52,527 nucleotides of DNA from Dehalococcoidia bacterium (lineage in GTDB: Bacteria; Chloroflexota; Dehalococcoidia; GIF9; AB-539-J10). A program made the position numbers and the translations under genes. Numbering within the stretch: position 1 is the first letter of the stretch; each line of letters opens with the position of its first letter. The stretch is from NCBI GenBank assembly GCA_035530115.1, contig DATKVL010000107.1:1-52527 (forward strand), written 5' to 3'. The notes beneath the pieces were generated by a model. It was not told the DNA's origin, ran no database searches, and was given only the letters and a program-made list of their open reading frames with translations. This document shows, one piece after another, positions 3,205 through 32,017 of this stretch.

Positions 3205-3205
3205 C

Positions 3206-6006: not shown

Positions 6007-6008
6007 AA

Positions 6009-6832: not shown

Positions 6833-6833
6833 G

Positions 6834-7058: not shown

Positions 7059-7061
7059 GAT

Positions 7062-7190: not shown

Positions 7191-7191
7191 G

Positions 7192-9116: not shown

Positions 9117-9638
9117 ATGACCGACTCTGACCAAAAAGAGACACGGATAACTGCGAAGAAACGAGTCCGAATAGAGAAAGAGTTCGAGGCCATGGGCAGA
9201 GGCATCTGGACCTACGCCGACATAGCGGCAGAGATCGGCGTATCAGAGGTCACTGTCAGGAGAGACATGAAGCACCCCTACGCCTTCAAGTACGTCGAGA
9301 AACTTCAAGAGAGAAGAGGATCTCTCGTAGACCAACTCATAAAAAGACAGATTAATCAAATAGAGAGCGGGGGCGTAACCCCCCACCTCCAGTTGCTCTA
9401 TAGAGGGAAGATGATCGATGGTCTTCTACCCAAGAACGTCATCCAGAAAGTTAGTGGGGAACTTCAACAAAAGATAGAGGTGGAGGGGGTTGAACTCAAA
9501 GGACTTGACGAAGACGCAGTCGGAGCAATCGTTCAGAACTTCATGGACGACGAGGCGAGAAGACTACGTCAACCAGAGCCAGATGCTATACCGGGCGCTA
9601 AAGAACGCCCTGAAGATGGAGTGGATCCCACGGGATAA
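9117..9638 (+). CDS. terS: Terminase small subunit (HTH)
   Basis: Position immediately upstream of and overlapping TerL; YADIAAEIGVSEVTVRRDMK helix-turn-helix. Confidence 0.6.
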   Translation: MTDSDQKETRITAKKRVRIEKEFEAMGRGIWTYADIAAEIGVSEVTVRRDMKHPYAFKYVEKLQERRGSLVDQLIKRQINQIESGGVTPHLQLLYRGKMIDGLLPKNVIQKVSGELQQKIEVEGVELKGLDEDAVGAIVQNFMDDEARRLRQPEPDAIPGAKERPEDGVDPTG

Positions 9639-11089: not shown

Positions 11090-11254
11090 TTGCAGTTCTG
11101 TAAATGCGGGTCCATTATATCCATCGAAGCCTGCCCATCCTGCCCGCCCCAGATATGGACGTGTCCCCAATGCGGAGAGCAGACGCTGGTCGAAGCCGCC
11201 CCCGAGGATCAGTACGCGGACGTGATTAGAAGGTTCAAGGAGAGACAAAGATGA
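11090..11254 (+). CDS. Small Zn-ribbon protein (54 aa)
   Basis: TTG 11090 after gagga; LQFCKCGSIISIEACPSCPPQIWTCPQCGE; the track ORF 11012..11254 start overlaps the previous gene. Confidence 0.5.
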   Translation: MQFCKCGSIISIEACPSCPPQIWTCPQCGEQTLVEAAPEDQYADVIRRFKERQR

Positions 11255-17481: not shown

Positions 17482-17898
17482 ATGGCAGCACCAAACTACC
17501 CCGTTGAGGGGCTAATCGGAAAGATAACGCTCGGCGGAACCATCATCGGACACCTGCTCGGTGTAGAGCTGAGCGGCGACCGATCAGTGACACACTACAG
17601 GGCTATGGGGACTTACGACGCCACCACGCTACTCCGCGGCCGTAGGAACTATGAGGGGAGCGCCCGCAAAGCATTCATCTGCGGGGACTTCCTGACGCTG
17701 TTCCGAAACAACTGCGGAACCATAGCAGGCACATTCTACCCCCGCTACGGCCACTGCACAGGCGGCACAGCCGCGTGCGGAACCATAGCAGGCTCACTCA
17801 TCTTCACGGGCTGGCGCCTAACCGGCTGGGAAGCCGAAGCGGAGGCCGCGAAGATCGAAGAGCTAACCTTCGCCATGTACAACGTCAGCCAACCTTAA
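17482..17898 (+). CDS. Hypothetical structural protein (between scaffold and MCP; decoration protein?)
   Basis: ORF track 138 aa; aggtgat SD upstream; function inferred from position only. Confidence 0.45.
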   Translation: MAAPNYPVEGLIGKITLGGTIIGHLLGVELSGDRSVTHYRAMGTYDATTLLRGRRNYEGSARKAFICGDFLTLFRNNCGTIAGTFYPRYGHCTGGTAACGTIAGSLIFTGWRLTGWEAEAEAAKIEELTFAMYNVSQP

Positions 17899-18082: not shown

Positions 18083-19273
18083 TTGAGTAAATCCGAAATC
18101 GAATCCCCCATAGAAGTGTCAATCGACACCAAAGGCATGGAAGACAGACTCAACAACAACTTCAACCTCAAGTTCAAGAAGCTAGAGGAGATGCTCACCG
18201 CACAAGAGAAGACAGAGGCTCTCACCGAGAGCGTAGGCGACAACAAGTTCGTCGACTACGACTGGCGTGAAGGCATCGACGAGATGCTCAGAAGCTTCAG
18301 GCCGAGCGACAACATCCGCACCGACGCCTGGCAGGACAGGCGTCCGATCGAGAAGTTAGCCATCCGCACCTACGACGAGAAAACCAAGAAAACCAGCTAT
18401 AAACTATCCGAGAAGCTAGTCGAAACCATCGGAACCATCAGCACGACTACCTGCTGCATCCCCGAGGTGTGGGCCGACAAGATCGAGCGCGACCACGTCT
18501 ACCCGGGCAGCGTCTTCCTAGACGCATGGTTCGTAAGATGGTACGACGACATCAAGGGCAAGCCAGGCGACAAGATCAACATCTGCCGCGTGGCCCCCGC
18601 AGTATGTACCGACCTAACATGCGAGGAACCCGCAACCACGGCACCCGTGGTTACGTGCCCCGCCATCGAACTGCACCACGACGTCTGCGCCACCGCTATC
18701 TGCAAGAACACCATGGAGACCGTGCAGTACGGTCTCGTAGACGCCATCACGGAAGGCCTCGGCAGCTGCCTGCAGGTCTGTGTGGACAACTACTTCTTCG
18801 ACGTCGCCCTCGCCGGCGACAACGCCGGAACACTGACATGCACCGGCCCCATGGCCGGCTCCATAATCGTCGAGGCGATGGGAAGCATGATGGCTGGAAC
18901 TTACAAGCCAGTCAAGATTATCATGCACCCCGTCGTCTGGGCTTCGCTGATGCAGGACACCAACTTCAGCTATGCTAACAGGTTCGGCGCCAGAGACGCC
19001 ATTCTAGGCGGGCGGCTTGAAGAGGCTTACGGCCTCGAAATCAACGTGGCCCCGAAGGGCACGCTGCTCATCGGCGGCGGAACCTACCGGACACTGCTAC
19101 TGGCCAACGGCGCCCTCGCCGGTGCCCTGAAGCACGGGATAACGATCGAGACGGAGTACTCGCCACGCCTCCAGAAGAAGTGGATAATTGCCGACATCAA
19201 GTATGGCGGCACGCGTCTGCACCCTGACGGGATCTTCTGGATCGAGACGGTCGAGTCCCCGTTCTCCTGCTAG
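18083..19273 (+). CDS. Major capsid protein, HK97 fold
   Basis: 396 aa after scaffold-like gene; ggtgat SD 8 nt before TTG start; C-terminal LLLANGALAGALKHGITIETEYSPRLQKKWIIADIKYGG is typical of HK97-family MCPs. Confidence 0.8.
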   Translation: MSKSEIESPIEVSIDTKGMEDRLNNNFNLKFKKLEEMLTAQEKTEALTESVGDNKFVDYDWREGIDEMLRSFRPSDNIRTDAWQDRRPIEKLAIRTYDEKTKKTSYKLSEKLVETIGTISTTTCCIPEVWADKIERDHVYPGSVFLDAWFVRWYDDIKGKPGDKINICRVAPAVCTDLTCEEPATTAPVVTCPAIELHHDVCATAICKNTMETVQYGLVDAITEGLGSCLQVCVDNYFFDVALAGDNAGTLTCTGPMAGSIIVEAMGSMMAGTYKPVKIIMHPVVWASLMQDTNFSYANRFGARDAILGGRLEEAYGLEINVAPKGTLLIGGGTYRTLLLANGALAGALKHGITIETEYSPRLQKKWIIADIKYGGTRLHPDGIFWIETVESPFSC

Positions 19274-19345: not shown

Positions 19346-21412
19346 ATGAAATTGGAGAAGAGAGAGATCAAAGTAAGTTCAACAAAGAGATTCAAAGGCA
19401 GCGCCCCACCAAACTTCTATTCAAGAGAGTATTTTCTTGAGGGGGAGGGTAGCAACTATGGCAGGGAGCCGTTCGCGCCCTACGACGAGTCGTACCTAAT
19501 AAGAAACCGTGAGCTCGTCAAAAGGATACTATCCGTCGCACCTAGACTAAACACGGTTCTGGTTCTCGGGGCAGCCCGGGGCTACCTGGTCCGTGCCTTC
19601 CGTGAGCGCGGCGTCAACGCCGACGGAGTAGACTTGAGCCGGTGGGCCGTGGAGAACTGCGCCGAAGGCGTCGAGCCCTACATGTATTGGGGCGACGTAT
19701 GCGACCTCAGTAAATGGGTTGACGGGGGGGTTGACCTCGTCGTGGCCCTCGACGTGCTAGAGCATATTCGAGCCCCGGATGATGAAATACCGTATGATGA
19801 ATCGCTCTATAAGGCGCTAGATGAGGCGGTCCGAGTTGGCTGTATGGTGCTGCTTGACGTCCCCATAATGCCCCATGACGATGAGCCCGACCAGAGCCAC
19901 GGCACCGATAAGAGCCACGTAAGCTGCTACTCCAAACACTGGTGGATAAGACAGTTCATGGAGAGGGGTATGGAGCCCTTCGGTCAGCCCAACGAGTACG
20001 CCTATCCAGAGGAGAAGGAGGACTCGCCGTGGCCGGATAAACATGACCACGGCTACACCGTCTGGTTCCGCCGCCCCATCCCCACCCCGACGGCTGAGAA
20101 CATAACGTTAACGCCGGTCGCTAAGGGAAGTCAGGACTTCAAGATTCTGTGGTGGGCTAACGCATTCTTCTGTGGAACCGGGTACGGGGTAGGCACCGCC
20201 GGCGTAGTCTTTGACCTATTAGAACACTATAACGTGCGGAACCTCGCCTTCTACGGGCTTGAAGGAAAAGCAATGGGGTTCAGCACCCCGATAGGCGGTA
20301 CCCCCGTAAAGGGTCGACGCCCACTCATAACGTACCCTAAACGGTTCGACCAGTTCGGGTCGGACGCCGCGAAACTCATCTGCGACCGATGGAAGCCCGA
20401 CATCATGGTCACACTTTTCGACATCTGGATCGACGAGTCACTAAGCCCCATAGGTCCACCGGGTTGGCTGAGCAGCATGCACCCGTACTGGGTGCCGATC
20501 ATACCCGTGGATCATGACCCGATCCCGATGCCCACGTTGGTGCCCGCGAGGAGGGCGTATAAGCCGGTAGCTATGAGCAGGTTCGGGCAGAGGCAGCTTG
20601 AGGCTAACGGCGTCTCCTCAACATACATCCCGCACGGCGTTGAAACATCTGTATTCAAGCCTTCGGAGGACAAAGTGGTGAGTCGGCAGCACCTTCAGGA
20701 CATATCGGTTCCGCTCGTCGCCGGTAAAGCTGAGCCGTGGCCCGAGGACTGCTTCGTCATCGGCAAGGTCGCCGCCAACAAGGACACTAAACGTAAAGGC
20801 TTCGACAAGGACGCCCTGGCTCTAAACATATTCTTCGAGAACAACCCTGACGCTAAGAAGGATACCCGGGTCTTCATGCATACGCTCCCCCGCTTCCCCG
20901 GCGGCTTCAACATAGACCACTGGTACGACATCTGCGGTGTCGCACAATACGTGAAAGTCATAGACGAGTTCTTCTGGTGGCAGGGCTTGACCCCCGAGGA
21001 TATGGCGAAACTCTACGGCGGCTTCGATGTACTATTGAATGCCAGTCGCGGCGAGGGGTTCGGCATACCCATCATCGAAGCAGCCGCCTGCGGGGTGCCG
21101 ACGATAGGAACCAACTTCACGGCCATGCCCGAACTCATAAGAGGGCACGGCTGGCTGGTGGAGAAATATAACCGGGAACTCACGGCGGCGCTCAGTTTCA
21201 TCGCGTCTCCGAGCGAGTACGAGATGGCGCAGCACCTAGAGGATGCCTATAACAACCGCGACAAAACTGCACAATTCGGCGAGGCGTCGAGGAAATTCGC
21301 CCTGAACTACGACTGGCGTAAAGTAATTGTGCCTTTGTGGGTCAACCTCATAGAGGAGATACGGGAGGAGATGCGTCCAAGAACCCTCGCGGAGAGGAGG
21401 ATGATGACATGA
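19346..21412 (+). CDS. Fusion protein: class I SAM-methyltransferase (N-terminal) plus GT-B glycosyltransferase family 1/4-like (C-terminal)
   Basis: VLVLGAARGYL...GVDLS...VVALDVLEHI (MTase motifs I-III); C-terminal DVLLNASRGEGFGIPIIEAAACGVPTIGTNFTAMPELI (E-x7-E GT1 motif). Confidence 0.8.
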   Translation: MKLEKREIKVSSTKRFKGSAPPNFYSREYFLEGEGSNYGREPFAPYDESYLIRNRELVKRILSVAPRLNTVLVLGAARGYLVRAFRERGVNADGVDLSRWAVENCAEGVEPYMYWGDVCDLSKWVDGGVDLVVALDVLEHIRAPDDEIPYDESLYKALDEAVRVGCMVLLDVPIMPHDDEPDQSHGTDKSHVSCYSKHWWIRQFMERGMEPFGQPNEYAYPEEKEDSPWPDKHDHGYTVWFRRPIPTPTAENITLTPVAKGSQDFKILWWANAFFCGTGYGVGTAGVVFDLLEHYNVRNLAFYGLEGKAMGFSTPIGGTPVKGRRPLITYPKRFDQFGSDAAKLICDRWKPDIMVTLFDIWIDESLSPIGPPGWLSSMHPYWVPIIPVDHDPIPMPTLVPARRAYKPVAMSRFGQRQLEANGVSSTYIPHGVETSVFKPSEDKVVSRQHLQDISVPLVAGKAEPWPEDCFVIGKVAANKDTKRKGFDKDALALNIFFENNPDAKKDTRVFMHTLPRFPGGFNIDHWYDICGVAQYVKVIDEFFWWQGLTPEDMAKLYGGFDVLLNASRGEGFGIPIIEAAACGVPTIGTNFTAMPELIRGHGWLVEKYNRELTAALSFIASPSEYEMAQHLEDAYNNRDKTAQFGEASRKFALNYDWRKVIVPLWVNLIEEIREEMRPRTLAERRMMT

Positions 21413-22218
21413 GCGTCATGGTCGGCGTCCCAGTTAAGAACTCGGCGATTTGGCTCGCCCGCTTCCTTGAGCAGCTTGAGAAACTTGAGGACGTGTCCCG
21501 CGTCATATTCAGTTATGGCTTTAGCCGCGACCCTACGCTTAATATCTTACAACAGTATGAGCATGACACTAAGCACCCGACGGAGATAATCGCTGAGCCG
21601 TGGATGCCCGGACCCCTATCCGCCGCTGAGATCGCCCCCGTCTACAAGGACTTCCAGGAGATCATCGGCGAGGAGGGCTGGGAGGAGGAGACCCACTTCC
21701 TGCTTCTCGACGCCGACATAATGCATGCCCCCGCCGACCTGATCCAACGCCTGAAGAAACATGACAAAGACATCATCGCCCCCTTCGTGTGGGTTGACAG
21801 ATCGAACCCCCGCCAGTTCTTCGACATCCACTGCTTCCGAATATATGAACACCGGTTCCACCCCTTCTCGCCACCCGACCCCAACAACGGAGAGCCTTTC
21901 GAGCTAGACAGCGTCGGCAGCTGCTACCTCGCCAAATACGAGCCATTCAAGCTTGTCGACTATGAGAACCCGCACCCACATATACGGTTCTGCGAGAACG
22001 CGTTGAAGGAAGGCTACGAGGTCTGGGCTGACCCAGGCACTGAGGTGCTGCACCTCGACGATATGAAGCTCGGCATAAAGAAGACGGCAATCGAGACGTT
22101 GAGGGGGCAGCCCTTCAACCCACCACCATACATAATGAAGGACGGCACAGTCGTTGACGGCGAGCAGATCGCTAAGGACGCCATCGACGCCTTCGTCTGG
22201 GGGCGAGCACCGAAATGA
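21409..22218 (+). CDS. Glycosyltransferase, GT-A fold (DxD)
   Basis: ATGA overlap; MVGVPVKNSAIWL...HFLLLDADIMH...DSVGSCYL pattern. Confidence 0.6.
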   Translation: MSVMVGVPVKNSAIWLARFLEQLEKLEDVSRVIFSYGFSRDPTLNILQQYEHDTKHPTEIIAEPWMPGPLSAAEIAPVYKDFQEIIGEEGWEEETHFLLLDADIMHAPADLIQRLKKHDKDIIAPFVWVDRSNPRQFFDIHCFRIYEHRFHPFSPPDPNNGEPFELDSVGSCYLAKYEPFKLVDYENPHPHIRFCENALKEGYEVWADPGTEVLHLDDMKLGIKKTAIETLRGQPFNPPPYIMKDGTVVDGEQIAKDAIDAFVWGRAPK

Positions 22219-22379
22219 GGTTCTGTAAATATTGCAACCGGAACGTCCGACCTCATAAAGGCTGGAGCTGGATCGGCTTCATCTTCGGCTTCGGCATATT
22301 CTACCTAATATATTACCTATTGAAGACGCCGTGCTGCCCCATCTGCGGATCCAGACTAGGGCGGCTGAGGCGAGACTAA
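22215..22379 (+). CDS. Small Zn-ribbon/transmembrane protein (54 aa)
   Basis: ATGA overlap; MRFCKYCNRNV...WIGFIFGFGIFYLIYYLL...CCPICGS. Confidence 0.45.
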   Translation: MRFCKYCNRNVRPHKGWSWIGFIFGFGIFYLIYYLLKTPCCPICGSRLGRLRRD

Positions 22380-22380
22380 A

Positions 22381-23193
22381 ATGGCTGTTGAGACCCCGCA
22401 GGTTCACGGCGTGGAGAACCCGGTCTACTCGGTGGTTATCCCCATCCGAGACCGGTGCGGCCACGCCCTCCGTCTCTGCCTGAAAAGCGTGGAACTGCAG
22501 ACGCTTCAACCCCTGGAGCTAATCATAGTCGACTACGGCTCCACCGAGGAAAACCATGAGAAACTGATGAGACTACTCCCAGACTGCACCGTCTACCACT
22601 GTAAGACAGATGCACCCTGGAGCCTCTCCGTCGCCCGAAACATAGGGCTCCGACGGGCCACGGCGAGGACGTCGTGTTCCCTGGATGCCGACCTGATAAT
22701 GGAGCCCCGCGTCCTCGAAGTCGCCCACCGGATACACACCGCCAAACCACGCACCTATATGAGCACCAATGTGACAATCCTAGACTTTGCGGCCGTAGAC
22801 CCCGCCACCCTCACGCTTCCAGAAGACTACGACAAACTAGCTTTAGCACGCTGGACCTTTGGGTCAGAGGGATGGGGCGGCTTCGTGAGCGCCTCCACCG
22901 ATTGGTGGCACGAGTGCCAGGGCTTCGACGAGCGCATGACGGTCTGGGGCTCTGAGGACGTGGATATGTGGAAACGTGCCGCCAGGGCGGGAATGAGTCG
23001 CTACCGGCTCTACGTCGCCGGTGAAGAGGGAACCACCGTATATCACGTGCATCACCCGAGCATACCGGTGAACGCAATTAGGGCTAAAGATAAAAAGGTC
23101 ATAGCGGCCATAAAGCAGAACTCACGGTGGGCTCGAGTCACTAAGGGTGTGAGGCGTAACGACGAAGCCTGGGGGCTGTGGCGTGAAGATTAG
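22381..23193 (+). CDS. Glycosyltransferase family 2
   Basis: YSVVIPIRDR, LIIVDYGST, SLDADLIM (DxD), GFDERMTVWGSEDVDMWKR are canonical GT2 motifs. Confidence 0.85.
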   Translation: MAVETPQVHGVENPVYSVVIPIRDRCGHALRLCLKSVELQTLQPLELIIVDYGSTEENHEKLMRLLPDCTVYHCKTDAPWSLSVARNIGLRRATARTSCSLDADLIMEPRVLEVAHRIHTAKPRTYMSTNVTILDFAAVDPATLTLPEDYDKLALARWTFGSEGWGGFVSASTDWWHECQGFDERMTVWGSEDVDMWKRAARAGMSRYRLYVAGEEGTTVYHVHHPSIPVNAIRAKDKKVIAAIKQNSRWARVTKGVRRNDEAWGLWRED

Positions 23194-24031
23194 CGCCGCC
23201 CTCATCGCCTGGTGTGAGGCGGAGACTATAGACCTCTGCCTTAAATCCCTCAAAGGCCACGCCGACGAGGTCGTGATCTCCGACACAGGTAGCTTCGACG
23301 GAACCGTCGGCAAGGCTCGGGAGTGGCTTGACAGACTAGACTTGCCGGGCGAGGTTTTCAGCGTCACGATTCGAGGGCTCGGTCAGGCCCGCCGGGCAGC
23401 GATAGAGAAATGCACGCATCCGTGGATACAACTGGTAGACGCGAACATCGTCCTCACTGAGGCATTGAAGAAAGAGCTAAGACAGTCTGCTGAGGGAGGG
23501 CGTCCCGGTATGGTTCGCAGCTTAAACCTGATGGGCGACTATGAGCATTACTTCACATCCCTCCCGTTCCATGCTCATCATAACGTATTATTCCCCCGTG
23601 ACGCAATTCGGTGGCGAGATGACTTCGACTACCCTCTTCCAGTCTCGGGGCGAATCCTGCTGAATAATTGGGCAGTGAGCCTCAGCCGGGTAAGGCCGGC
23701 GTGGCGCTACTGGCTCCGAGGTGAGCCCTTCAAACCGGAGACGGGTCGCGAGTGGCGGACGCCGGAGAACCGGCAACTGCAATGGCAATTCTCGGGCGGC
23801 CATCACCCCTCACTCCTGGAGTACGTAGAGGCCGAGGAGGGACTGACCCTTGAGGACGTGAAGCGCATCGCCCCCACCTGGTTCCTAGACCTGTTGCAAC
23901 GCTATGCAGCACCATTAAAGGAGAGTCACCGGCAAGGGCTTCCCGAGGTTATTAGGGAAGAACAGAGAAACCCACGGTACAAGTTGGTCTATGAGGGAGG
24001 TGAAATCGTTGGGCGATGGCCCGAACTCTAA
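23183..24031 (+). CDS. Glycosyltransferase family 2-like
   Basis: EVVISDTGSFDGT resembles the DTGSTDxT motif; GTG start overlaps previous gene. Confidence 0.6.
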   Translation: MKISAALIAWCEAETIDLCLKSLKGHADEVVISDTGSFDGTVGKAREWLDRLDLPGEVFSVTIRGLGQARRAAIEKCTHPWIQLVDANIVLTEALKKELRQSAEGGRPGMVRSLNLMGDYEHYFTSLPFHAHHNVLFPRDAIRWRDDFDYPLPVSGRILLNNWAVSLSRVRPAWRYWLRGEPFKPETGREWRTPENRQLQWQFSGGHHPSLLEYVEAEEGLTLEDVKRIAPTWFLDLLQRYAAPLKESHRQGLPEVIREEQRNPRYKLVYEGGEIVGRWPEL

Positions 24032-24770
24032 TGTAGCTGAATCATCAGGAATCCAATCGTCTAAACCCAAAGTCTCGTTAATAGTGACGAGTCATAACCA
24101 GATTATGTATAGCCAGATGATGTATTCTTCTCTGAAAAAGTACACTCGATACCCCTATGAACTTGTCTGGGTTGATTGTATAAGCACCGATGGAACGAGG
24201 GAGTGGCTTAATTCGGAGCTACACAAGGAAACCGTGAAAGTCTTCGTGCCAAAAATTGGGATAGGCGAGGCGATGAACATCGGCTTCAGTAAATGTAGCA
24301 AAGAAAGCGAATACATTGGTGACTTGGACAATGATTTGATTCTAACAGAAGGTTGGCTTACGAGATTGATCCAGCATATGGAGATGGACAAGAAAATAGC
24401 AGTGTGCCAGGCACTATGGAGTCTCCGTGGAAAAGATCCGGAGAAAATACATGAATTTGCACGGACTATAAAGAATAATAACGGCTTGAAGAAAATGTGG
24501 TGGGTTAATGGGAGCCACACCCTCTTCAGAAGAAGTGCTCTTGAACAAGTTGGACTTTGGAACCCTATTTACTGGATGGGTGAAGATAAGGATATTGGGA
24601 TACGGTTATCAAACGCTGGCTTTAAGAATGTAATTGCTTTGAATACATGTGTTTATCACTTTCAGGGGAGAACTACTAGCGTGATAGAAAAAACTGATCC
24701 AGAATGGAACAAACACAGGATAGAGTCAAAACGTTTATTAGATAAACTGTATGGTTCACGTAAACGGTAG
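23991..24770 (+). CDS. Glycosyltransferase family 2
   Basis: VSLIVTSHNQ, LVWVDCISTDGT, DLDNDLIL (DxD); alternative starts GTG 24000 or TTG 24009; composition turns AT-rich here. Confidence 0.75.
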   Translation: MREVKSLGDGPNSNVAESSGIQSSKPKVSLIVTSHNQIMYSQMMYSSLKKYTRYPYELVWVDCISTDGTREWLNSELHKETVKVFVPKIGIGEAMNIGFSKCSKESEYIGDLDNDLILTEGWLTRLIQHMEMDKKIAVCQALWSLRGKDPEKIHEFARTIKNNNGLKKMWWVNGSHTLFRRSALEQVGLWNPIYWMGEDKDIGIRLSNAGFKNVIALNTCVYHFQGRTTSVIEKTDPEWNKHRIESKRLLDKLYGSRKR

Positions 24771-24787
24771 GCTGGAAAATCGCTGGA

Positions 24788-25882
24788 TTGAATGTAGACT
24801 TGCTAACATATGAAAACGTTCTATCTAGATCCAAGATGAAAAGTGACATAAATAAACACCTGACTCGCCTCTATAAGCTAACTGCCAATATCCCTTTTAA
24901 AGAAAAGGTTGTAGTAGAACTTGGGGTGAGAAGTGGAGAGTCTACAACAGCATTGTTAGCTGCTGTAAACGATACAGGTGGGCGATTAATCAGTGTGGAT
25001 ATAGCAGAATGCAACAAGACTAGAAGACGATTGAAAGGAGAACCCAATTGGTCTTTTATCCATGGAAACGATATAGAGATCATCAAAGAATGGGACAAGC
25101 CAATAGACCACCTATTCATTGATACGAGCCATACCTTTAAACACACTCTTGCAGAACTCCGTGAATGGGGGGACTGGGTTAAAGAAAATGGAATAATGTC
25201 CCTTCACGACACAACTGCACAGAACTATCCTGATCTTATGAAAGCAATAGAAAAATATCTTGAAGAGAATCCAACATTTTTATTTACTAATTATCCCGAG
25301 TGTTTCGGTCTTGGTGTTATACAAAAACAGTCTAATGCTTTACCCAAGGAGTATTGGGAAGCTTGTAGATGGTATTTGAATGATGCTTACGACTTAGATA
25401 TAGATGATAAAACATCTTTTTATCCACAGAGATATTACGAAATTGCTGACGTATTAAAATCATTGGAGCCAAACCCCCAAAAAATATTGGAGGTTGGTTG
25501 CTTAACTGGTTACGGCATCAACATTTTGGAAAGTAGAGGCTTTGAGATCTATGGAATAGAAATTTATGGAAGGGCAATAAGAAAAAGGGTGTCTGATCAC
25601 ATCATTAAGGCTTCAACGGAGACCTTGCCCTTCAGGAACAAAAGTTTTGATGCCGTGATTAGTCTTGGAGTCCTGGAGCATATACACAGATCCGGCTTGG
25701 ATAGGGTCCTCCTTGAAATGGACAGGGTCGGTAAAGCAAACATCCATAGAATACACATGAAAGGTTTTGGTCGGTTTTGGAATCGTTCTTGGCACATAAC
25801 GGTCGAAAACATAGGTTTCTGGAAAACCTTGCTTGAAAAACTTGGGATTGGGGAGCATTGGCACTTGTATCATGAACCTTAA
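24788..25882 (+). CDS. Tandem double SAM-dependent methyltransferase
   Basis: Domain 1: VVVELGVRSGESTTAL...FIDTSHT (Methyltransf_24/O-MTase-like). Domain 2: ILEVGCLTGYGINIL...FDAVISLGVLEHI (Methyltransf_11-like). Confidence 0.75.
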   Translation: MNVDLLTYENVLSRSKMKSDINKHLTRLYKLTANIPFKEKVVVELGVRSGESTTALLAAVNDTGGRLISVDIAECNKTRRRLKGEPNWSFIHGNDIEIIKEWDKPIDHLFIDTSHTFKHTLAELREWGDWVKENGIMSLHDTTAQNYPDLMKAIEKYLEENPTFLFTNYPECFGLGVIQKQSNALPKEYWEACRWYLNDAYDLDIDDKTSFYPQRYYEIADVLKSLEPNPQKILEVGCLTGYGINILESRGFEIYGIEIYGRAIRKRVSDHIIKASTETLPFRNKSFDAVISLGVLEHIHRSGLDRVLLEMDRVGKANIHRIHMKGFGRFWNRSWHITVENIGFWKTLLEKLGIGEHWHLYHEP

Positions 25883-25905
25883 TAATTCTTAGGAGGAAAA
25901 TATTG

Positions 25906-26859
25906 ATGAAATGTCTCGTAACCGGGTCCGTTGGCTTCATTGGAAGCCATCTAGTTAACTACCTGAAATCCAAGGGGCACTGGGTAAGAGGGGCCGACAT
26001 AAAAAGTAGAAGCGATTGCTACCTAGAAACCAAGGAAGACGAGTTTCTACAGATCGATTTGAGGCTCTTCGAGAACGCGGTTTCCGCCCTAACCGACGTT
26101 GACTGGGTCTTCAACTTGGCGGCCGACATGGGGGGCATAGGCTACATCACCGAGTACAACGCCCCGATAATGCATAACAATTCCCTTATCAACCTCAACA
26201 TGCTTAAGGCATCCCGCCTCGCCGATGTGAACCGCTACTTCTTCAGCAGCTCGGCGTGTACCTACAACCGCGACCTCCAAGCGGAACCTCATTCCCCGCC
26301 CCTTAAGGAGAGCAGTGTATTACCGGCCCACCCAGATTCGGCCTACGGGTGGGAAAAGCTGTACGCCGAATTGCTTTGCAAGAGCTACGAACATGACTAC
26401 GGGCTTCCCGTTCGGATTGCCCGATTCCACAATATTTACGGCACCCACGGGACTTACACGGGAGGGCAGGAGAAGTTCCCGGCCGCGGTCTGCAGAAAGG
26501 TGGCCGAGGCTCCTGATGGGGGCTCGATCATTCTCTGGGGTGACGGCAAACAGAGGCGGAGCTACCTCTGGGTGGACGACTGCTGCGAGGGTTTCTACAG
26601 GCTGACTCAAAGCGGTTTCAGTGATCCGGTTAACATCGGCACGAGTCGGAGCGTCGGCGTGGACGAGCTGGCGCACGTGGTTATGGGGATAGCTGGGAAG
26701 AACCTGACGATTGAACACGATCTCTCGAAACCACAGGGTGTCCGAGGAAGGAACGCAGACTTAACCTTGCTTCGCAAGGTTTTGGATTGGGAGCCAAAAG
26801 TCAGTCTTGAAGATGGTATATCTAAACTCTATCACTGGATTGAAGAACGGGTGAATTAA
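25906..26859 (+). CDS. NAD-dependent nucleotide-sugar epimerase, GDP-mannose 3,5-epimerase-like
   Basis: VTGSVGFIGSHL (GxxGxxG); VFNLAADMGGIGYI, FFSSSACTY, SAYGWEKL (YxxxK), RIARFHNIYG, EKFPAAVCRK, WGDGKQRRS and PQGVRGRNAD parallel the plant/bacterial GME sequence as I recall it. Confidence 0.88.
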   Translation: MKCLVTGSVGFIGSHLVNYLKSKGHWVRGADIKSRSDCYLETKEDEFLQIDLRLFENAVSALTDVDWVFNLAADMGGIGYITEYNAPIMHNNSLINLNMLKASRLADVNRYFFSSSACTYNRDLQAEPHSPPLKESSVLPAHPDSAYGWEKLYAELLCKSYEHDYGLPVRIARFHNIYGTHGTYTGGQEKFPAAVCRKVAEAPDGGSIILWGDGKQRRSYLWVDDCCEGFYRLTQSGFSDPVNIGTSRSVGVDELAHVVMGIAGKNLTIEHDLSKPQGVRGRNADLTLLRKVLDWEPKVSLEDGISKLYHWIEERVN

Positions 26860-26875
26860 GAGCTAAAGCTGAACG

Positions 26876-27880
26876 ATGTTATCAGGAAACCCTAAAATGA
26901 AAATCCTGTTTCTAAGACGCCGATGCGAGGGCCTCGTAGGCGCACCAGGAAAGTATCATGAGTTCGAGCAAGCGGTCGGTAAACTAGCAGAATGCCAATG
27001 GGCGGGAGAAGGGTGGCCCCTGCATAAGCCGAACGAGTTCATGAATGAAACCGTGAAACGGGTGATGCCGGACGCCGACTGGGTGTTCGATAGGGACGAC
27101 GGATTCAACCCGCCGAGCAACCGACACTATAAAGTCGGCGCCTTCCTCTCAGATCTACACGGAAAATGGAGTAAAAACATTCAAACCCCACGCGGTTTTG
27201 TGAACTTGATAAACACCGCTGGATACGACGCCGTGTTCCTGAAGTATCTTCACATCTACGGAACCTCGGCGCCTCCAGACCTGTTTCTTAAGAGCCTCAA
27301 TCCCCGCGTATATTTCCTTCCTTGGAGCGTGGACCCAGATAAATTCAAGCCGCTTGAGAAGACGATAGATGCAGCGTTCCTCGGAAGGAAGGGACCCGTT
27401 TACCCGCTTAGAAACAGGTTGTGGAGGGAACTACCCCAATTCTGCGGGGAACGGAGGCTACGGCTGCTTATGAGGGAGCCCCCTAAGCTGGAAAGCTTCA
27501 AGAGAAAAATAAGCGATTACAAGGGGGATAGTCGCTACATTGTCGGTGAAGACTACGAGAAAACGCTAGGGCAGACGAGGATGCTTCTCTTCGGCTCCAG
27601 CAGATACCGTTATGCTATACAGAAATACACGGAGGGCGCAAGCACGGGATGCTTGGTTATGGCTGACGAGCCTAGCGACGCGGCGGCCCTCGGACTCGTA
27701 GATGGCGAAACCTATGTGACCATCACGGCGACCAACTGGAAGCACAAACTGGATTATTACCTGGGTCACCCCTCTGAGGCTGAACGTATAGCGGGCAACG
27801 GCAGACGCTTAATCTTGGAGCGACACACTCATAGGCATCGAGCTGAAGAGTTTCTGAGGAGTTTAGAAGATGGGCTTTAG
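26876..27880 (+). CDS. Glycosyltransferase, CgeB/Glyco_trans_1_2-like
   Basis: C-terminal KYTEGASTGCLVMADEP...GETYVTI...ERIAGNGRRLILERHTHRHRAEEFL resembles the GT1_2 domain; alternative start ATG 26897. Confidence 0.55.
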   Translation: MLSGNPKMKILFLRRRCEGLVGAPGKYHEFEQAVGKLAECQWAGEGWPLHKPNEFMNETVKRVMPDADWVFDRDDGFNPPSNRHYKVGAFLSDLHGKWSKNIQTPRGFVNLINTAGYDAVFLKYLHIYGTSAPPDLFLKSLNPRVYFLPWSVDPDKFKPLEKTIDAAFLGRKGPVYPLRNRLWRELPQFCGERRLRLLMREPPKLESFKRKISDYKGDSRYIVGEDYEKTLGQTRMLLFGSSRYRYAIQKYTEGASTGCLVMADEPSDAAALGLVDGETYVTITATNWKHKLDYYLGHPSEAERIAGNGRRLILERHTHRHRAEEFLRSLEDGL

Positions 27881-27930: not shown

Positions 27931-28602
27931 ATGGCAGCGATTAGATATTGTTCGACCCTAGATGTTAGCATCCTTGGGCAAGTTGAATGGCAGCAACTTG
28001 GCTTCGGATCCATCACCTACTTCAATGACTGGGTGCATGGCACCCTCATCTACAAAGCCATGGACTTCATAGACAACTATTGCCGCCACAACTTTCAGCT
28101 CAACGCGGGAACCATCACAATGGATGGCACGGGAAAGGAGACCCAACACATCCCACCCCACGCCAAAACGACGGGGTTAATGCCACCCCCCTCCTCGGCT
28201 CCATTGACTTCAACGCTTCCCGTCAACCTAATGCCAATCCCTCTCATGGAAATAACGGAAATCAAAATTGAGGGAGTAACACAAACACTAACGAACTTCC
28301 AAACCTATACCGCCCACATCACCCATAGAGACAACGTTTTCGCCCAAGGACGGCAGAACGTCGCGGTCATCGCCACATTCGGCTACGGAACCATTCCACA
28401 CGACATCCAATACGTTTGTGCAGAGTTATGCTCAAACATCATGGCAGACATGATTAGAAGGCGGACACTCGGCGACCTCATAACACCAGTCCTAGAAGGC
28501 GGCGGAAACCTGAACATGCTTTTCAGGTCACCGAAGGTACTCACAGAAAACGAAAAATCGATCTTAAACAAATATCGTTATCACGCGATGGAGATAACCT
28601 GA
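27931..28602 (+). CDS. Head-tail connector (gp6-like adaptor), putative
   Basis: N-terminus YCSTLDVSILGQ...LIYKAMDFIDNYCRHNF fits the gp6-like Y-x-t-x-x-d-l...A-x-x-x-I-x-x-Y-x-x-r-x-F pattern. Confidence 0.5.
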   Translation: MAAIRYCSTLDVSILGQVEWQQLGFGSITYFNDWVHGTLIYKAMDFIDNYCRHNFQLNAGTITMDGTGKETQHIPPHAKTTGLMPPPSSAPLTSTLPVNLMPIPLMEITEIKIEGVTQTLTNFQTYTAHITHRDNVFAQGRQNVAVIATFGYGTIPHDIQYVCAELCSNIMADMIRRRTLGDLITPVLEGGGNLNMLFRSPKVLTENEKSILNKYRYHAMEIT

Positions 28603-29113: not shown

Positions 29114-29875
29114 ATGTATAAACAAGGGTTTAAACACTCTGAAGAAACCAAGAGAAAAATGTCCGAGAGTCACCTGAAAAACCCTACACGTTATTGGCTG
29201 GATAAGAAACTATCCGAAGAACATAAAATAAAAATAAGTAATGCCCATAAAGGAAAAACACTATCTAAAGAACACAAACAAAAAATTAGCAGGGTTTTAA
29301 AAGGTATTATTACATGGAATAAAGGGCAAAAAGGAATATACTCAGAGGATCATAGAAGAAAAATAAGTACATCCTCGAAGGGAAACAAACATAATAAGGA
29401 CCGCAAGGCTTCTGAAGATACAAAACGAAGAATGTCGGATGCTCAAAAGAAAATAACTCATTCGGGTAGATTTAAAAAGGGAAACATGCACCGCTATTAT
29501 GAAAAAACATTTTCAGAAGAACATAAAAATAAAATTCGAGAAGCTAGACTAAAACAGGTTTTTCCCCAAAAGGATACTTCTATTGAAGTCGCTATGCAAA
29601 ACGAATTAACCCAACGAGGAATTATTTACGAGAAGCATCTTCCGGTTTGCGGGGTGTGCCAGCCTGACATAGTTTTTCCAGAGAGAAAGATCATTATTCA
29701 ATGCGATGGTGATTACTGGCATAACTTGCCTGAGATGGTCGAGAAGGATAGAAGGCAGGACAAGGCTCTTAGAGCGAATGGGTGGCAGGTTCTTCGTTTC
29801 TGGGAGCACGAAATTAAAGATAATGTTCAAAGATGTGTAGATGAAATAACGTTCCAGGTAAACCATATTAGTTAA
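29114..29875 (+). CDS. Homing endonuclease: six NUMOD3-like repeats plus a Vsr/DUF559-type PD-(D/E)xK nuclease domain
   Basis: Repeats such as GFKHSEETKRKMSESH, KLSEEHKIKISNAHKG and TLSKEHKQKISRVLKG; C-terminal QPDIVFPERKIIIQCDGDYWH...ANGWQVLRFWEHEI. Confidence 0.8.
   Translation: MYKQGFKHSEETKRKMSESHLKNPTRYWLDKKLSEEHKIKISNAHKGKTLSKEHKQKISRVLKGIITWNKGQKGIYSEDHRRKISTSSKGNKHNKDRKASEDTKRRMSDAQKKITHSGRFKKGNMHRYYEKTFSEEHKNKIREARLKQVFPQKDTSIEVAMQNELTQRGIIYEKHLPVCGVCQPDIVFPERKIIIQCDGDYWHNLPEMVEKDRRQDKALRANGWQVLRFWEHEIKDNVQRCVDEITFQVNHIS
29843..29875 (+). repeat. Direct repeat copy 2 (gaaataacgttccaggtaaaccatattagttaa)
   Basis: See 29064..29096; five of the six differences are silent wobble changes and one gives V->I. 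Confidence 0.85.
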
Positions 29876-29891
29876 GTTTGGAGTTGAGACT

Positions 29892-30173
29892 ATGGAGAAA
29901 GTAAGAATCGGAGAAGGTATCCGAAGATACACGTTTGACGAGTTGAAGGAGGAGATGACTGAGGAGGACGCCCTGTTCGCAGGGACCGCCGCCTTCGTCA
30001 TATCTATGAACTGGATCGACTACCAGCGGCTTAAGAAGCATCTGAGCATGATCCCGGAGTTCAGGGTAGTGTACAAGACCTTTTCGACCACCCATCTTCG
30101 AATCGTCAAAGTAGAGCAGTACGACGAATATCTTTTATGGCGGAAAAATAAGGAGAATAAAGATGGAATATAA
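29892..30173 (+). CDS. Hypothetical structural-module protein
   Basis: ORF track 93 aa; GC-rich except the last ~40 nt, which are AT-rich like the downstream HNH gene. Confidence 0.5.
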   Translation: MEKVRIGEGIRRYTFDELKEEMTEEDALFAGTAAFVISMNWIDYQRLKKHLSMIPEFRVVYKTFSTTHLRIVKVEQYDEYLLWRKNKENKDGI

Positions 30174-30861
30174 TAGCGAGTTCATTCAAAAACTAATTGA
30201 AAGACCGATGTTCAGTGTACTAGAAGAGGCTTATAATATACGGGATAGACAGAGTGCAGTTTGTCGTTATTGGGCATACACAGAATCAGAAAAGACGCAT
30301 CGACAAAAGCTACAAAAACAATATTATTTAGAAAATAGAAACAAAATATTAAAACAAAAGAAAGAATACTGCCAGAAAAACAAGGTCAAAAGACTAAGCA
30401 AGGCAAAGGAATATTATTTAGAGAATAGAGATAAAATAAAGAATTATCAAAAACAACACCGCGAAGAAAACGAACCTAGACTTCTTCAAGAGTCAAGAGA
30501 TCGTTATCAGAAAAATAGAGATAGAAATTTACTTTACGCAAAGAAGCGACACCAAATGAATAAAGAAACGGATAATAAAAAATCAAGGAATCGTCGCAAA
30601 GAGATGCGTTTAGAGATCTTAAAAATTCTAGGCGGCGAATGTCAAAGATGTGGTATTACCGATCATCGAGTTTTACAAATAGATCACGTATGTGGTGGTG
30701 GAAAAAAGGAACTCAAAAAAGGTGGAAATTACCACGTAATGAAAAACATTATTAAAAACCCAGAATGCAAACATAAATACCAGTTATTATGTGCAAACTG
30801 CAACTGGATAAAAAGGCATGAAAATAAAGAGTATCAAAAAGGACGAATTAGAGATAACTAG
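30163..30861 (+). CDS. HNH homing endonuclease
   Basis: CQRCGITDHRVLQIDHV...YQLLCANCNWIKRHEN (HNH motif); N-terminal YYLENRxKI repeats; AT-rich island. Confidence 0.85.
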   Translation: MEYNSEFIQKLIERPMFSVLEEAYNIRDRQSAVCRYWAYTESEKTHRQKLQKQYYLENRNKILKQKKEYCQKNKVKRLSKAKEYYLENRDKIKNYQKQHREENEPRLLQESRDRYQKNRDRNLLYAKKRHQMNKETDNKKSRNRRKEMRLEILKILGGECQRCGITDHRVLQIDHVCGGGKKELKKGGNYHVMKNIIKNPECKHKYQLLCANCNWIKRHENKEYQKGRIRDN

Positions 30862-31600: not shown

Positions 31601-32017
31601 ATGAGTCTCAGATTTTCTATAAAATGGGATAACCTCGACAACTACAGTAGATACCTAGCTTCAGATATGCCTCAGGCATTCGAGGAATCCGTCGTGGAGG
31701 CTCTGGATAAGGGTGCTGACGCCGCACGGGATCGGGCTAAGGAACTTGTCGCTGTTGACACGGGGTCACTACAGAAGAGCATCCGTAAAGAACGCCACGC
31801 GTGGCCCGCAGGTAACATCACTTACGTGGGGATCAGGGCAGGCGGCTATGTGGTGAACCCGAAGACTAAGCGGCTCGTCGACTATGCGATTTATGTTGAG
31901 TATGGCACAAGCAGGCAAAGGCCACAGCCATACATGAGGCCGGCGATCATATGGGCATCCAAGCAGATCGAGGGAAACTTCTGGAAGGCGTTAAGCAGGC
32001 GAGTAAAAGTTGAGTGA
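31601..32017 (+). CDS. HK97 gp10-family neck/tail-completion protein
   Basis: VAVDTGSLQKSIRKE...DYAIYVEYGTSRQRPQPYMRPAI matches the TIGR01725-type pattern (vDTG-L-x-S...YA-x-x-vEyGT...P-pfm-pA). Confidence 0.75.
   Translation: MSLRFSIKWDNLDNYSRYLASDMPQAFEESVVEALDKGADAARDRAKELVAVDTGSLQKSIRKERHAWPAGNITYVGIRAGGYVVNPKTKRLVDYAIYVEYGTSRQRPQPYMRPAIIWASKQIEGNFWKALSRRVKVE

What the first reader, a model, noticed from the sequence alone, without database searches (positions are those of the whole stretch)
19346..27880. Nine-gene glycosylation/methylation island embedded in the structural operon between the capsid and connector genes
Directly after the MCP gene, nine consecutive + strand genes fill about 8.5 kb, roughly one sixth of the genome. 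They encode an MTase-GT1 fusion and four GT-A/GT2-like enzymes (DxD motifs LLLDADIM, SLDADLIM, DNDLIL; SDTGSFDGT). They also encode a 54-aa Zn-ribbon/TM protein, a tandem double methyltransferase, a GDP-mannose-3,5-epimerase-like SDR and a CgeB-like GT. Because the cluster sits inside the late morphogenesis module, I infer that the virus builds its own methylated, probably L-hexose-containing glycan. The target could be the virion (capsid or tail) or host surface glycans. Virus-encoded glycosylation machinery is established for chloroviruses, and glycosylated capsids are known for some archaeal viruses. To my knowledge a combined sugar-nucleotide conversion, multi-GT and multi-MTase pathway in a tailed archaeal virus is not a described system.
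Basis: partly seen in the sequence, partly recalled or inferred. Interest (0 to 1): 0.82.

Follow-up and report, generated by a model that had tools for sequence, protein, structure and literature searches.

The report
Capsid-linked sugar-coating gene island, archaeal virus
A complete 52-kb tailed virus of archaea spends one sixth of its genome, wedged between its capsid gene and its head-tail joining gene, on soluble enzymes that make and methylate sugars. Relatives keep the same slot and the same first two enzymes but swap almost everything else, which points to a strain-specific sugar coat on the virus particle; the target has not been shown.

Summary
Window 19346-27880 carries eight enzyme genes that Pfam supports, plus one unverified 54-aa ORF. 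All lie on the + strand and are tightly packed, directly after an HK97-fold capsid gene and directly before a head-tail adaptor.

The enzymes are:
- a methyltransferase-GT4 fusion;
- an Anp1-like GT-A;
- three GT2 enzymes;
- a double methyltransferase;
- a GDP-mannose 3,5-epimerase (E 7e-91 to the plant enzyme);
- a CgeB-like GT.

It is not an assembly chimera: 14 contigs from at least six samples carry the same order.

In 15 related genomes (capsid protein 35-86% identical) the island always sits in this slot. Where both ends are held it is 6.1-13.7 kb long. Only the GT4 is universal, the Anp1-like GT is in 13, and 47 of 59 gene clusters occur in one genome only. No island has a flippase, polymerase, oligosaccharyltransferase or other multi-pass membrane protein. 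The genome has no recognisable hydroxymethylase, TET-like dioxygenase or integrase.

Distant relatives of the same GT4 lie between the capsid and adaptor genes in bacterial phages (phiPsal1, Mae-JY09) and in the head-gene block (after portal and presumed capsid genes) of a podovirus-like lineage.

Best reading (about 0.55): glycosylation of head proteins in the cytoplasm, as shown for mycobacteriophages and chloroviruses. I rate it a new variant of a known kind.

The parts
18083..19273 (+). Major capsid protein (HK97 fold), left border of the island and candidate acceptor. It has invariant cysteines C180, C202, C207 and C229, and an invariant E182-P183 followed by a Thr-rich stretch.
   Evidence: phrog_544 at 3.6e-4. 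AF2 model with Foldseek PDB top hits that are phage capsid proteins, including Che8 and HFTV1, at E 1e-15 to 1e-11. 96 homologues. Alignments.
19346..21412 (+). G1: fusion of a class I SAM methyltransferase (aa about 50-175) with a retaining GT4-type GT-B glycosyltransferase (aa about 262-688, EX7E motif E570-E578). It is the only island gene present in all 15 related genomes.
   Evidence: Pfam. phrog_2170 at 3e-30 and phrog_27380 at 1e-17. Invariant residues. AF2 pLDDT 89.5; best PDB match is 3oy2, a chlorovirus NY-2A glycosyltransferase, at E 1.2e-15. Synteny.
21409..22218 (+). G2: Anp1/GT62-like GT-A glycosyltransferase with DxD motif LLLDADIM. It is the second conserved core gene, present in 13 of 15 genomes.
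   Evidence: Pfam Anp1 at 4.9e-10. The start at 21409 is supported by relatives and public gene calls. tblastn and clustering.
22215..22379 (+). G3: possible 54-aa gene with two CxxC pairs and one hydrophobic segment. It is specific to this lineage and unverified.
   Evidence: Translation. KD scan. No homologue in relatives. Not called in public annotation of the same contig.
22381..23193 (+). G4: GT2 plus Glyco_transf_7C glycosyltransferase (DxD SLDADLIM), shared with the three closest relatives.
   Evidence: Pfam. Chondroitin synthase 2z87 at 5.8e-13. Clustering.
23183..24031 (+). G5: GT2-like glycosyltransferase, shared only with one relative, where it is duplicated.
   Evidence: Pfam GT2 at 3.5e-10. 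phrog_13126..
23991..24770 (+). G6: GT2 glycosyltransferase (DNDLIL), GC 0.42, unique to this genome among the 15. Public gene callers give a 253-aa product, six residues shorter, so their start lies just downstream of 23991.
   Evidence: Pfam GT2 at 2.1e-15. GC. Clustering. Gene calls.
24788..25882 (+). G7: two methyltransferase domains in tandem (Methyltransf_24/rhamnosyl-O-MT-CmcI-like, then Methyltransf_11). GC 0.39, unique to this genome.
   Evidence: Pfam. GC. Clustering. Found with the same neighbours on 14 contigs.
25903..26859 (+). G8: GDP-mannose 3,5-epimerase. The motifs that hold the catalytic Cys, Tyr, Lys and Lys are conserved (SSAC, YGxEK, GGxEK).
   Evidence: PDB 8sg0 at 2.3e-92 and 2c59 at 6.8e-91; the next family is at 1e-30. 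Residue alignment. phrog_540 at 2e-77.
26876..27880 (+). G9: Glyco_trans_1_2 (CgeB-like) glycosyltransferase, shared with one relative at 52% identity.
   Evidence: Pfam at 1.3e-12..
27931..28602 (+). Head-tail adaptor, right border of the island. It is conserved at the right border in nine related loci from eight different viruses.
   Evidence: phrog_442 at 4.7e-6. Homologues 30-61% identical at the island end in L006, L014, L027-L031 and L033-L035.

Best explanation
This is a late-expressed glycan-building island that works in the cytoplasm, and its most likely substrate is the virus's own head, either the capsid protein or a head-associated protein.

Shown:
- Eight soluble enzymes are encoded in one co-directional, overlapping gene string with the capsid and adaptor genes.
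- One enzyme is a GDP-mannose 3,5-epimerase.
- Six are glycosyltransferases.
- There are three SAM-methyltransferase domains.
- The slot and the first two enzymes are conserved across the virus family, while the rest is replaced from genome to genome.

Inferred mechanism:
1. Host GDP-mannose is partly converted by G8 to GDP-L-galactose or GDP-L-gulose.
2. The universal GT4 (G1), probably with the Anp1-like GT (G2), lays down a conserved inner sugar or sugars directly on a Ser/Thr of a head protein, without a lipid carrier.
3. G4, G5, G6 and G9 extend the chain.
4. The G1 methyltransferase domain and the two G7 domains O-methylate sugar hydroxyls.

The variable outer genes in relatives include deoxy-amino-sugar pathways, B12-radical-SAM enzymes, acyl-, formyl- and pyruvyl-transferases. 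They would give each strain a different outer glycan, comparable to O-antigen serotypes. Plausible benefits are particle stability, adhesion, or evasion of recognition.
For: 1. Position. Capsid, island, adaptor, with overlapping or nearly touching genes. The same slot is used in all 15 related genomes, with capsid identity from 86% down to 35%. Island length is 6.1-13.7 kb.
2. All eight enzymes lack TM segments. Among 132 island ORFs from 16 loci, none has more than two TM-like segments, so there is no Wzx, Wzy, AglB or polyprenol-phosphate transferase. The Pfam census shows only soluble sugar-pathway families.
3. The GT4 clade itself is linked to head genes in unrelated tailed viruses with very different host envelopes:
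   - phiPsal1 (actinobacterial host): capsid, GT4, SAM methyltransferase, GT2, neck.
   - Microcystis phage Mae-JY09: capsid, hypothetical, GT4, three hypotheticals, adaptor.
   - Five of five podovirus-like contigs, in the head-gene block after the portal and presumed capsid genes; an adaptor gene is recognised downstream in three.
   The capsid is what these viruses share.
4. No close G1 or capsid homologue was found in 185,579 species-representative genomes; the only matches were two weak partial ones (26-30% identity) to single G1 domains.
5. Precedent. Corndog has a methyltransferase plus three GTs in its head operon, and those enzymes are reported to modify capsid and tail tube (PMC11600133 citing Freeman 2023). 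The best structural match of G1 is a chlorovirus GT.
6. Several G1 homologues carry inteins. By my own knowledge, inteins typically sit in conserved, important viral genes.
7. One conserved core with 47 of 59 clusters found in a single genome fits diversifying selection on an exposed product.
Against: - No glycan, acceptor or expression data exist; everything is inferred from sequence and synteny.
- The capsid protein has no long Ser/Thr-rich tail. The candidate site (the EP-x-T-T loop) lies in a low-confidence part of the model (pLDDT about 60), so its exposure is unknown.
- There is no sequence homology to the mycobacteriophage enzymes.
- Soluble GT2 and GT4 enzymes also act on dolichol-linked intermediates at the cytoplasmic face in archaeal N-glycosylation. 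The absence of membrane proteins therefore does not exclude use of the host's flippase and AglB.
- The host assignment rests on MCM similarity of only 42-44%.
Confidence: 0.55

Rival explanations
1. The virus remodels the host envelope. Its enzymes alter the host's lipid-linked (dolichol) oligosaccharide or S-layer glycan, using the host's own flippase and oligosaccharyltransferase. This would mask receptors, blocking superinfection or stopping progeny from sticking to debris.
For: - GT2 and GT4 enzymes, sugar-nucleotide enzymes and methyltransferases are the usual content of cell-surface glycan loci.
- O-antigen-like hypervariability would also fit an arms race at the cell surface.
- Archaeal Agl glycosyltransferases are soluble or peripheral too (my own knowledge).
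Against: - The island lies inside the late head module, not beside an integrase or in a moron position, and no integrase is recognisable in the genome.
- No initiating phosphoglycosyltransferase, flippase, polymerase or OST occurs in any of 16 loci.
- The same GT4 clade sits in the head-gene block of phages of Actinobacteria and Cyanobacteria and of a podovirus-like lineage, whose envelopes have nothing in common with an archaeal S-layer.
Confidence: 0.2
2. The target is viral DNA. The glycosyltransferases attach sugars to hydroxymethylated bases of the viral genome, as in T4 and the clusters of Pyle et al. 2023, to evade restriction.
For: - Phage GT-A and GT-B enzymes related to LPS and teichoic-acid enzymes glycosylate 5hmC.
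- Pyle et al. report that such clusters can neighbour structural genes, and that epimerases and second GTs occur in them (bioRxiv 10.1101/2023.12.21.572611).
Against: - Pfam scans of the large ORFs and of 56 further ORFs of the window found no thymidylate-synthase-like hydroxymethylase, no cytosine-C5 methyltransferase and no TET/JBP-type dioxygenase.
- None of these families is among the 25 most frequent of the 52 Pfam families matched in relatives' islands; the other 27 families were not shown.
- Six GTs plus amino-sugar, pyruvyl and formyl chemistry is far more than known DNA glycans need.
- The strict capsid-to-adaptor slot is not explained.
Confidence: 0.07
3. The island has some other product or acceptor. 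It might make a free or lipid-bound polysaccharide or a small glycoconjugate, or it might glycosylate tail or fibre proteins or host proteins rather than the head.
For: - The acceptor is unknown.
- In mycobacteriophages the tail tube is modified as well.
- A PMC11706807 passage proposes tail glycosylation for one archaeal virus.
Against: In every lineage examined, the GT4 clade is linked to the capsid gene rather than to tail or fibre genes.
Confidence: 0.15
4. The island is an artefact: host or foreign DNA joined to a virus contig by misassembly.
For: GC drops to 0.39-0.42 in G6-G7 against about 0.57 around them.
Against: - The identical gene order, including both GC junctions, occurs on 14 contigs from at least six samples (five Logan sequencing-run assemblies and one ENA metagenome assembly).
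- The exact G1 protein is seen on 9 contigs.
- Synteny holds in 15 related genomes.
- Low-GC patches occur elsewhere in this genome as well, in the early genes and the homing endonuclease genes.
Confidence: 0.01

Closest known systems
Mycobacteriophage virion glycosylation cassettes (Corndog gp35-38; Che8, Myrna)
   Same: - Phage-encoded methyltransferase plus several glycosyltransferases inside the head-gene block (Corndog record).
- Reported to modify capsid and tail tube subunits (PMC11600133 citing Freeman et al. 2023).
- Soluble enzymes with no export machinery.
   Different: - No detectable sequence homology.
- Corndog's cassette lies upstream of the capsid gene, is about 2.8 kb and has no sugar-nucleotide enzymes.
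- Here the island is 6-14 kb, lies between capsid and adaptor, has GME and other nucleotide-sugar pathways, and is hypervariable between relatives.
- The host is archaeal.
Chlorovirus (PBCV-1/NY-2A) capsid-protein glycosylation machinery
   Same: - Virus-encoded cytoplasmic GTs that build an atypical methylated glycan on the capsid protein.
- A multidomain GT-methyltransferase protein (A064R) and virus-encoded GDP-sugar enzymes. Both points are from my own knowledge, not tested here.
- The best structural neighbour of G1 is the NY-2A glycosyltransferase 3oy2.
   Different: - Chloroviruses are eukaryotic giant viruses with a double-jelly-roll capsid.
- Their genes are dispersed rather than in one slot.
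- They use GDP-mannose 4,6-dehydratase and GMER rather than GME.
- The margin of 3oy2 over cellular GT4s is small (1.2e-15 against 4.4e-14).
Capsid-to-adaptor GT4 cassettes in deposited bacterial phages (Pontimonas phage phiPsal1 MG835450; Microcystis phage Mae-JY09 PP395641)
   Same: - Homologous GT4 (32-35% identity, E 1e-34) in the same syntenic slot.
- phiPsal1 also has a SAM methyltransferase and a GT2.
   Different: - They hold three to five genes and no sugar-nucleotide enzymes.
- The methyltransferase is not fused to the GT4.
- Their function was never discussed: the phiPsal1 paper states the phage 'will not be further discussed' (PMC6106888).
O-antigen, capsule and archaeal Agl surface-glycan loci
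   Same: The same enzyme families, and the same pattern of a conserved core with a hypervariable remainder.
   Different: These islands lack the initiating phosphoglycosyltransferase, the flippase, the polymerase and the oligosaccharyltransferase. They are viral and lie in a head operon.
Megavirinae fibril glycosylation gene clusters
   Same: Clade-specific clusters that encode rare-sugar synthesis plus GTs to decorate the virion (my own knowledge, not tested here).
   Different: They belong to giant eukaryotic viruses, and the decorated structure is a fibril layer. No homology was examined.

Membership tests
GDP-mannose 3,5-epimerase (extended SDR) | Full-length similarity to characterised GMEs, clearly above other SDR sugar enzymes | tested here: met
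   8sg0 at 2.3e-92 and 2c59 at 6.8e-91 over residues 2-317. The next family (GDP-fucose synthase) is at 1e-30.
GDP-mannose 3,5-epimerase (extended SDR) | Catalytic Cys, Tyr-x3-Lys and second Lys (AtGME C145, Y174, K178, K217; numbering from memory), and an N-terminal GxxGxxG | tested here: met
   SSAC, AYGWEK and GGQEK align with SSAC, AYGLEK and GGREK of 2c59, and GSVGFIG is at the N-terminus.
GDP-mannose 3,5-epimerase (extended SDR) | Converts GDP-D-mannose to GDP-L-galactose or GDP-L-gulose | not testable with these tools
   Needs an enzyme assay.
Retaining GT4-type GT-B glycosyltransferase (G1 C-terminal part) | Two-Rossmann GT-B fold and EX7E motif | tested here: met
   AF2 pLDDT 89.5. 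Foldseek hits are GT4 enzymes with TM (target) 0.7-0.76. E570 and E578 are invariant in 33 homologues.
Phage virion-glycosylation cassette (mycobacteriophage type) | Phage-encoded GTs plus a methyltransferase inside the structural gene block | tested here: met
   for the window; the Corndog layout is.
Phage virion-glycosylation cassette (mycobacteriophage type) | Sequence homology to the Corndog enzymes | tested here: not met
   tblastn of all island proteins against the Corndog locus gave no hit at 1e-3.
Phage virion-glycosylation cassette (mycobacteriophage type) | Glycans shown on capsid or tail tube subunits | not testable with these tools
   Needs mass spectrometry of particles or co-expressed proteins.
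Lipid-carrier surface-glycan locus (Wzx/Wzy, ABC or AglB dependent) | Initiating polyprenol-phosphate sugar transferase, flippase or ABC transporter, and polymerase or oligosaccharyltransferase (multi-pass membrane proteins) | tested here: not met
   No ORF with more than two TM-like segments among 132 island ORFs from 16 loci. None of these families appears in the Pfam results. Only 25 of the 52 families in the census were shown.
DNA sugar-hypermodification cluster (5hmC/5hmU plus GT) | Thymidylate-synthase-like hydroxymethylase, or cytosine methyltransferase plus 5mYOX/TET dioxygenase, in the genome | tested here: not met
   Pfam scans of essentially all window ORFs found none. The criterion is taken from the Pyle et al. 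preprint.
Serotype-converting prophage module (Gtr/Oac type) | Temperate phage with the module beside integrase/att, and membrane GtrA/GtrB/Gtr(type) or an acyltransferase | tested here: not met
   No integrase was recognised. The enzymes are soluble. The position is mid head-module.
Chlorovirus-type capsid glycosylation | Soluble virus GTs, a GT-methyltransferase multidomain protein and virus GDP-sugar enzymes | tested here: met
   The similarity is functional and architectural only.
Chlorovirus-type capsid glycosylation | Glycan attached to the major capsid protein | not testable with these tools
   No particles or proteomics are available.

The most novel reading that the evidence does not exclude
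An undescribed family of tailed viruses of (probably) Bathyarchaeia coats its HK97-type head with a virus-made, methylated, rare-sugar glycan. The inner part is fixed by a universal methyltransferase-GT4 and an Anp1-like GT. The outer part is swapped between strains through a capsule-locus-like hypervariable island of 6-14 kb. These would be true 'virion serotypes', and the same GT4 clade would mark an ancient head-glycosylation module shared by tailed viruses of archaea and bacteria.
Probability: 0.4. Interest if true: 0.78.

Novelty: new variant of a known kind. Interest (0 to 1): 0.6.

Why it matters
Virion glycosylation in tailed viruses was shown only recently, and in small cassettes (mycobacteriophages).

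Here an environmental archaeal virus lineage devotes 12-23% of its genome to sugar chemistry at one fixed site next to the capsid gene. Its content turns over like an O-antigen locus. If the product sits on the capsid, several things would follow:
- Virus particles in sediments would carry strain-specific glycan coats, which bears on adsorption, particle stability and recognition.
- The G1-type GT4 would be a usable marker for finding head-glycosylating viruses of both bacteria and archaea in metagenomes.
- The islands would be a source of soluble, carrier-independent enzymes for rare and methylated sugars.

It also gives a testable handle, because the capsid protein can be co-expressed with G1 and G2 without needing to culture the host.

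Tried and rejected
- Capsid protein against 50,697 deposited phage genomes: no match, so no cultured relative.
- Scans of species-representative genomes with capsid and G1 profiles: no provirus and no close cellular homologue, only two weak partial matches (26-30% identity) to single G1 domains. The host could therefore not be fixed by integration.
- tRNA search: none.
- Adaptor identity by PDB sequence profile: nothing. It rests on PHROG and synteny.
- PDB sequence searches for G2 (no hit), G4 (chondroitin synthase only) and G1 (generic GT4): no donor or acceptor specificity could be inferred.
- NCBIfam: all GT and methyltransferase hits were far below the curated cut-offs, so no equivalog names.
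- PADLOC: only generic methyltransferase-domain hits, so not a defence system.
- Fetching the right end of the island in the closest 52.4-kb relative failed, both with the adaptor and with the tape-measure-like protein.
- The Freeman 2023 paper is not held. Its findings are cited second-hand.
- The weak SunS (S-glycosyltransferase) hit of G5, together with the cysteine-rich capsid protein, was considered as a hint of S-glycosylation. I rejected it as unsupported (E 8.6e-4 against a cut-off of 350 bits).
- Described Bathyarchaeia tailed viruses (Fuxivirus at 32 kb; Kunpengvirus with integrase and PolB) do not match this genome, and that paper mentions no such island.

Full report
**1. What is there**

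The window is a complete virus genome. Its first 141 bases repeat exactly at the end, so the unique length is 52,386 bp. Almost all genes are on the + strand.

The late block reads as follows:
- large terminase, 9490-10911 (Terminase_6N/6C);
- a weak portal match, 11251-12567;
- a 663-aa coiled-coil protein;
- a 138-aa protein;
- the capsid gene, 18083-19273;
- the island, 19346-27880;
- a head-tail adaptor, 27931-28602 (phrog_442 at 4.7e-6);
- two low-GC homing-endonuclease-like genes;
- a Neck1/HK97-gp10-like gene (phrog_5 at 3e-20);
- a PhageMin_Tail protein.

I confirmed the capsid gene independently. A 68-sequence alignment gave an AF2 model (pLDDT 66) whose best PDB matches are all HK97-fold phage capsid proteins, at E 1e-15 to 1e-11. 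They include mycobacteriophage Che8 and the archaeal virus HFTV1.

**2. The island genes**

- G1 has invariant SAM-binding-type residues and an invariant EX7E motif. Its model is confident (pLDDT 89.5) and has a methyltransferase domain followed by a GT-B fold. The best PDB neighbour is a chlorovirus NY-2A glycosyltransferase, closely followed by MshA and BshA.
- G8 is a GDP-mannose 3,5-epimerase in all but assay. It is about 50% identical to the plant enzyme, sixty orders of magnitude better than any other SDR family, and its catalytic motifs align.
- All eight enzymes are predicted soluble.
- The 54-aa ORF fits the gap between G2 and G4 exactly. It is not called in public annotation and is missing in all relatives. 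I keep it as 'possible'.
- G2 starts at 21409, not at the upstream GTG.

**3. Not an artefact**

The exact G7 protein occurs on 14 contigs from at least six samples (five Logan sequencing-run assemblies and one ENA metagenome assembly). Its neighbours are the same on both sides, and this includes the GC drop in G6-G7. That removes the chimera objection.

**4. What kind of virus**

- TerL is closest to Methanobacterium phage psiM2, at 41% identity.
- The genome encodes an MCM helicase. All of its nearest named archaeal relatives are Bathyarchaeia/MCG, at 42-44% identity.
- The capsid protein has no match in deposited phage genomes, and no relative was found in species-representative genomes.
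- The lineage differs from the Bathyarchaeia tailed viruses already described.
- The contig is filed in NCBI under a Dehalococcoidia MAG, which looks like misbinning.

**5. Comparative anatomy: the main result**

I fetched related loci through the capsid protein and through G1. This gave 15 distinct genomes, with capsid identity from 86% down to 35%.
- Wherever the upstream sequence is held, the capsid gene is directly followed by the G1 homologue.
- Where the right end is held, the adaptor homologue closes the island 6.1 to 13.7 kb further on.
- I clustered 116 island ORFs of at least 100 aa. G1 is in all 15 genomes. G2 is in 11 by clustering and 13 by tblastn. 47 of the 59 clusters occur in a single genome.
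- The variable part holds 16 SDR epimerase/dehydratases, 15 GT2, 7 DegT aminotransferases, 5 B12-radical-SAM enzymes, 5 hexapeptide acyltransferases and FkbM methyltransferases. It also holds single instances of pyruvyl transferase, MurB-like reductase, formyltransferase, UDP-glucose dehydrogenase and nucleotidyltransferase.
- G6, G7 and G8 of the window are unique among these genomes. G6 and G7 have foreign GC, so they look like a recent acquisition.
- Several G1 homologues are split by inteins.

**6. The GT4 clade outside this family**

G1 has only 81 detectable homologues in 5.8 billion proteins. The species-representative genomes gave no close homologue, only two weak partial matches (26-30% identity) to single G1 domains.

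The more distant, GT4-only members (30-35% identity) again sit in the head-gene block:
- Five of five contigs examined belong to a podovirus-like lineage. There the GT4 follows the portal and presumed capsid genes and lies next to an FkbM methyltransferase; an SU10-type adaptor gene is recognised downstream in three of the five.
- In Pontimonas phage phiPsal1 the order is capsid, GT4, SAM methyltransferase, GT2, neck.
- In Microcystis phage Mae-JY09 the GT4 lies between the capsid and adaptor genes.

The hosts range from an archaeon to an actinobacterium and a cyanobacterium. What stays constant is the HK97-type head.

**7. Mechanism**

The best-supported reading is direct glycosylation of a head protein in the cytoplasm. 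The evidence is:
- late co-expression, implied by the gene layout;
- soluble enzymes only;
- no lipid-carrier or export machinery in any island;
- linkage of this GT4 clade to head genes across lineages;
- the experimental precedents in mycobacteriophages and, from my own knowledge, chloroviruses.

Which residue is modified is unknown. An invariant C-x-E-P followed by a Thr-rich stretch (residues 180-190) is a candidate. It lies in a low-confidence loop of the model, so this is speculation.

**8. Rivals**

- Remodelling of host surface glycans remains possible, because archaeal Agl enzymes are also soluble. It fits poorly with the head-module position, the absence of an integrase and the cross-domain distribution of the GT4.
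- DNA glycosylation is a real, recently described use of phage GTs. The required hydroxymethylase, or the methyltransferase/TET pair, is not detectable anywhere in the genome.
- Misassembly is excluded.

**9. Novelty and score**

Virus-encoded glycosylation of virions is known, and GT genes beside capsid genes have been remarked in marine archaeal tailed viruses (PMC11706807). A three-gene version of this cassette is deposited without comment in a bacterial phage.

I found no description of the following points in the searches I could run:
- the scale, at 12-23% of the genome;
- full nucleotide-sugar pathways, including GME, in the island;
- one fixed slot;
- a two-gene conserved core with O-antigen-like turnover of the rest;
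- occurrence in an undescribed archaeal virus lineage.

I rate it a new variant of a known kind, with interest 0.6. It is robust and striking, but the acceptor is inferred and the general phenomenon has precedents.

Noticed in passing
window 1-141 and 52387-52527: Exact 141-bp repeat at both ends, typical of a circular contig from a k=141 assembler. The window is a complete 52,386-bp genome.
   Followed up: yes
window 1-8000, 23991-25882, 29114-30861, 48000-52527: Two GC regimes. Early genes, G6-G7 and two endonuclease genes are at GC 0.33-0.45, while the late genes are at 0.55-0.60. This suggests mosaic origin or recent imports.
   Followed up: partly
window 29114-29875 and 30163-30861: Two homing-endonuclease-like genes (NUMOD3+Vsr/DUF559, and HNH), both very low in GC, are inserted in the neck module between the adaptor and Neck1 genes.
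   Followed up: no
L010 2280-5657; proteins P0231, P0250, P0252, P0294; L012 1-728: Inteins (Hint/LAGLIDADG) interrupt the G1-type glycosyltransferase in several relatives. In L010 the methyltransferase is a separate gene. A terminase intein occurs in the podovirus-like lineage.
   Followed up: partly
window 18083-19273 (also 17482-17898): The capsid protein is unusually cysteine-rich, with four invariant cysteines (C180, C202, C207, C229) across 68 homologues. The small upstream protein is also Cys/Gly/Thr-rich. Disulfide or other cross-linking of the head is possible.
   Followed up: no
window 45282-47537: MCM helicase whose nearest named cellular relatives are Bathyarchaeia. The identical contig is deposited in NCBI under a Dehalococcoidia MAG, apparently a misbinned virus.
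   Followed up: partly
L043 5718-6011; L044 4259-6011: In the podovirus-like lineage, GroES (and in one case also GroEL) genes lie immediately upstream of the G1-like GT4 in the head module.
   Followed up: no
window 31601-34373: No tail-tube or tail-chaperone gene is recognisable between the Neck1/gp10-like gene and the PhageMin_Tail protein, which overlap. The tail type of this virus is unclear.
   Followed up: no
L023 17271-18491, L029 16869-18065, L032 14381-15679 and others: B12-binding radical SAM enzymes recur in five relatives' islands. One possibility is C-methylation or another radical modification of sugars.
   Followed up: no
L024 10001-21992 plus L014 1-9997 (IMGVR_UViG_3300031565_000029): This is the largest island seen, about 13.7 kb of a 59-kb genome. 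It holds duplicated GT2 genes, pyruvyl transferase, a MurB-like reductase and a 4,6-dehydratase, cupin and DegT set, which is typical of 3-amino-3,6-dideoxyhexose synthesis.
   Followed up: partly
window 178-891: A DUF5131 (phage Gp37/Gp68 family) protein is the only recognisable early gene besides MCM.
   Followed up: no
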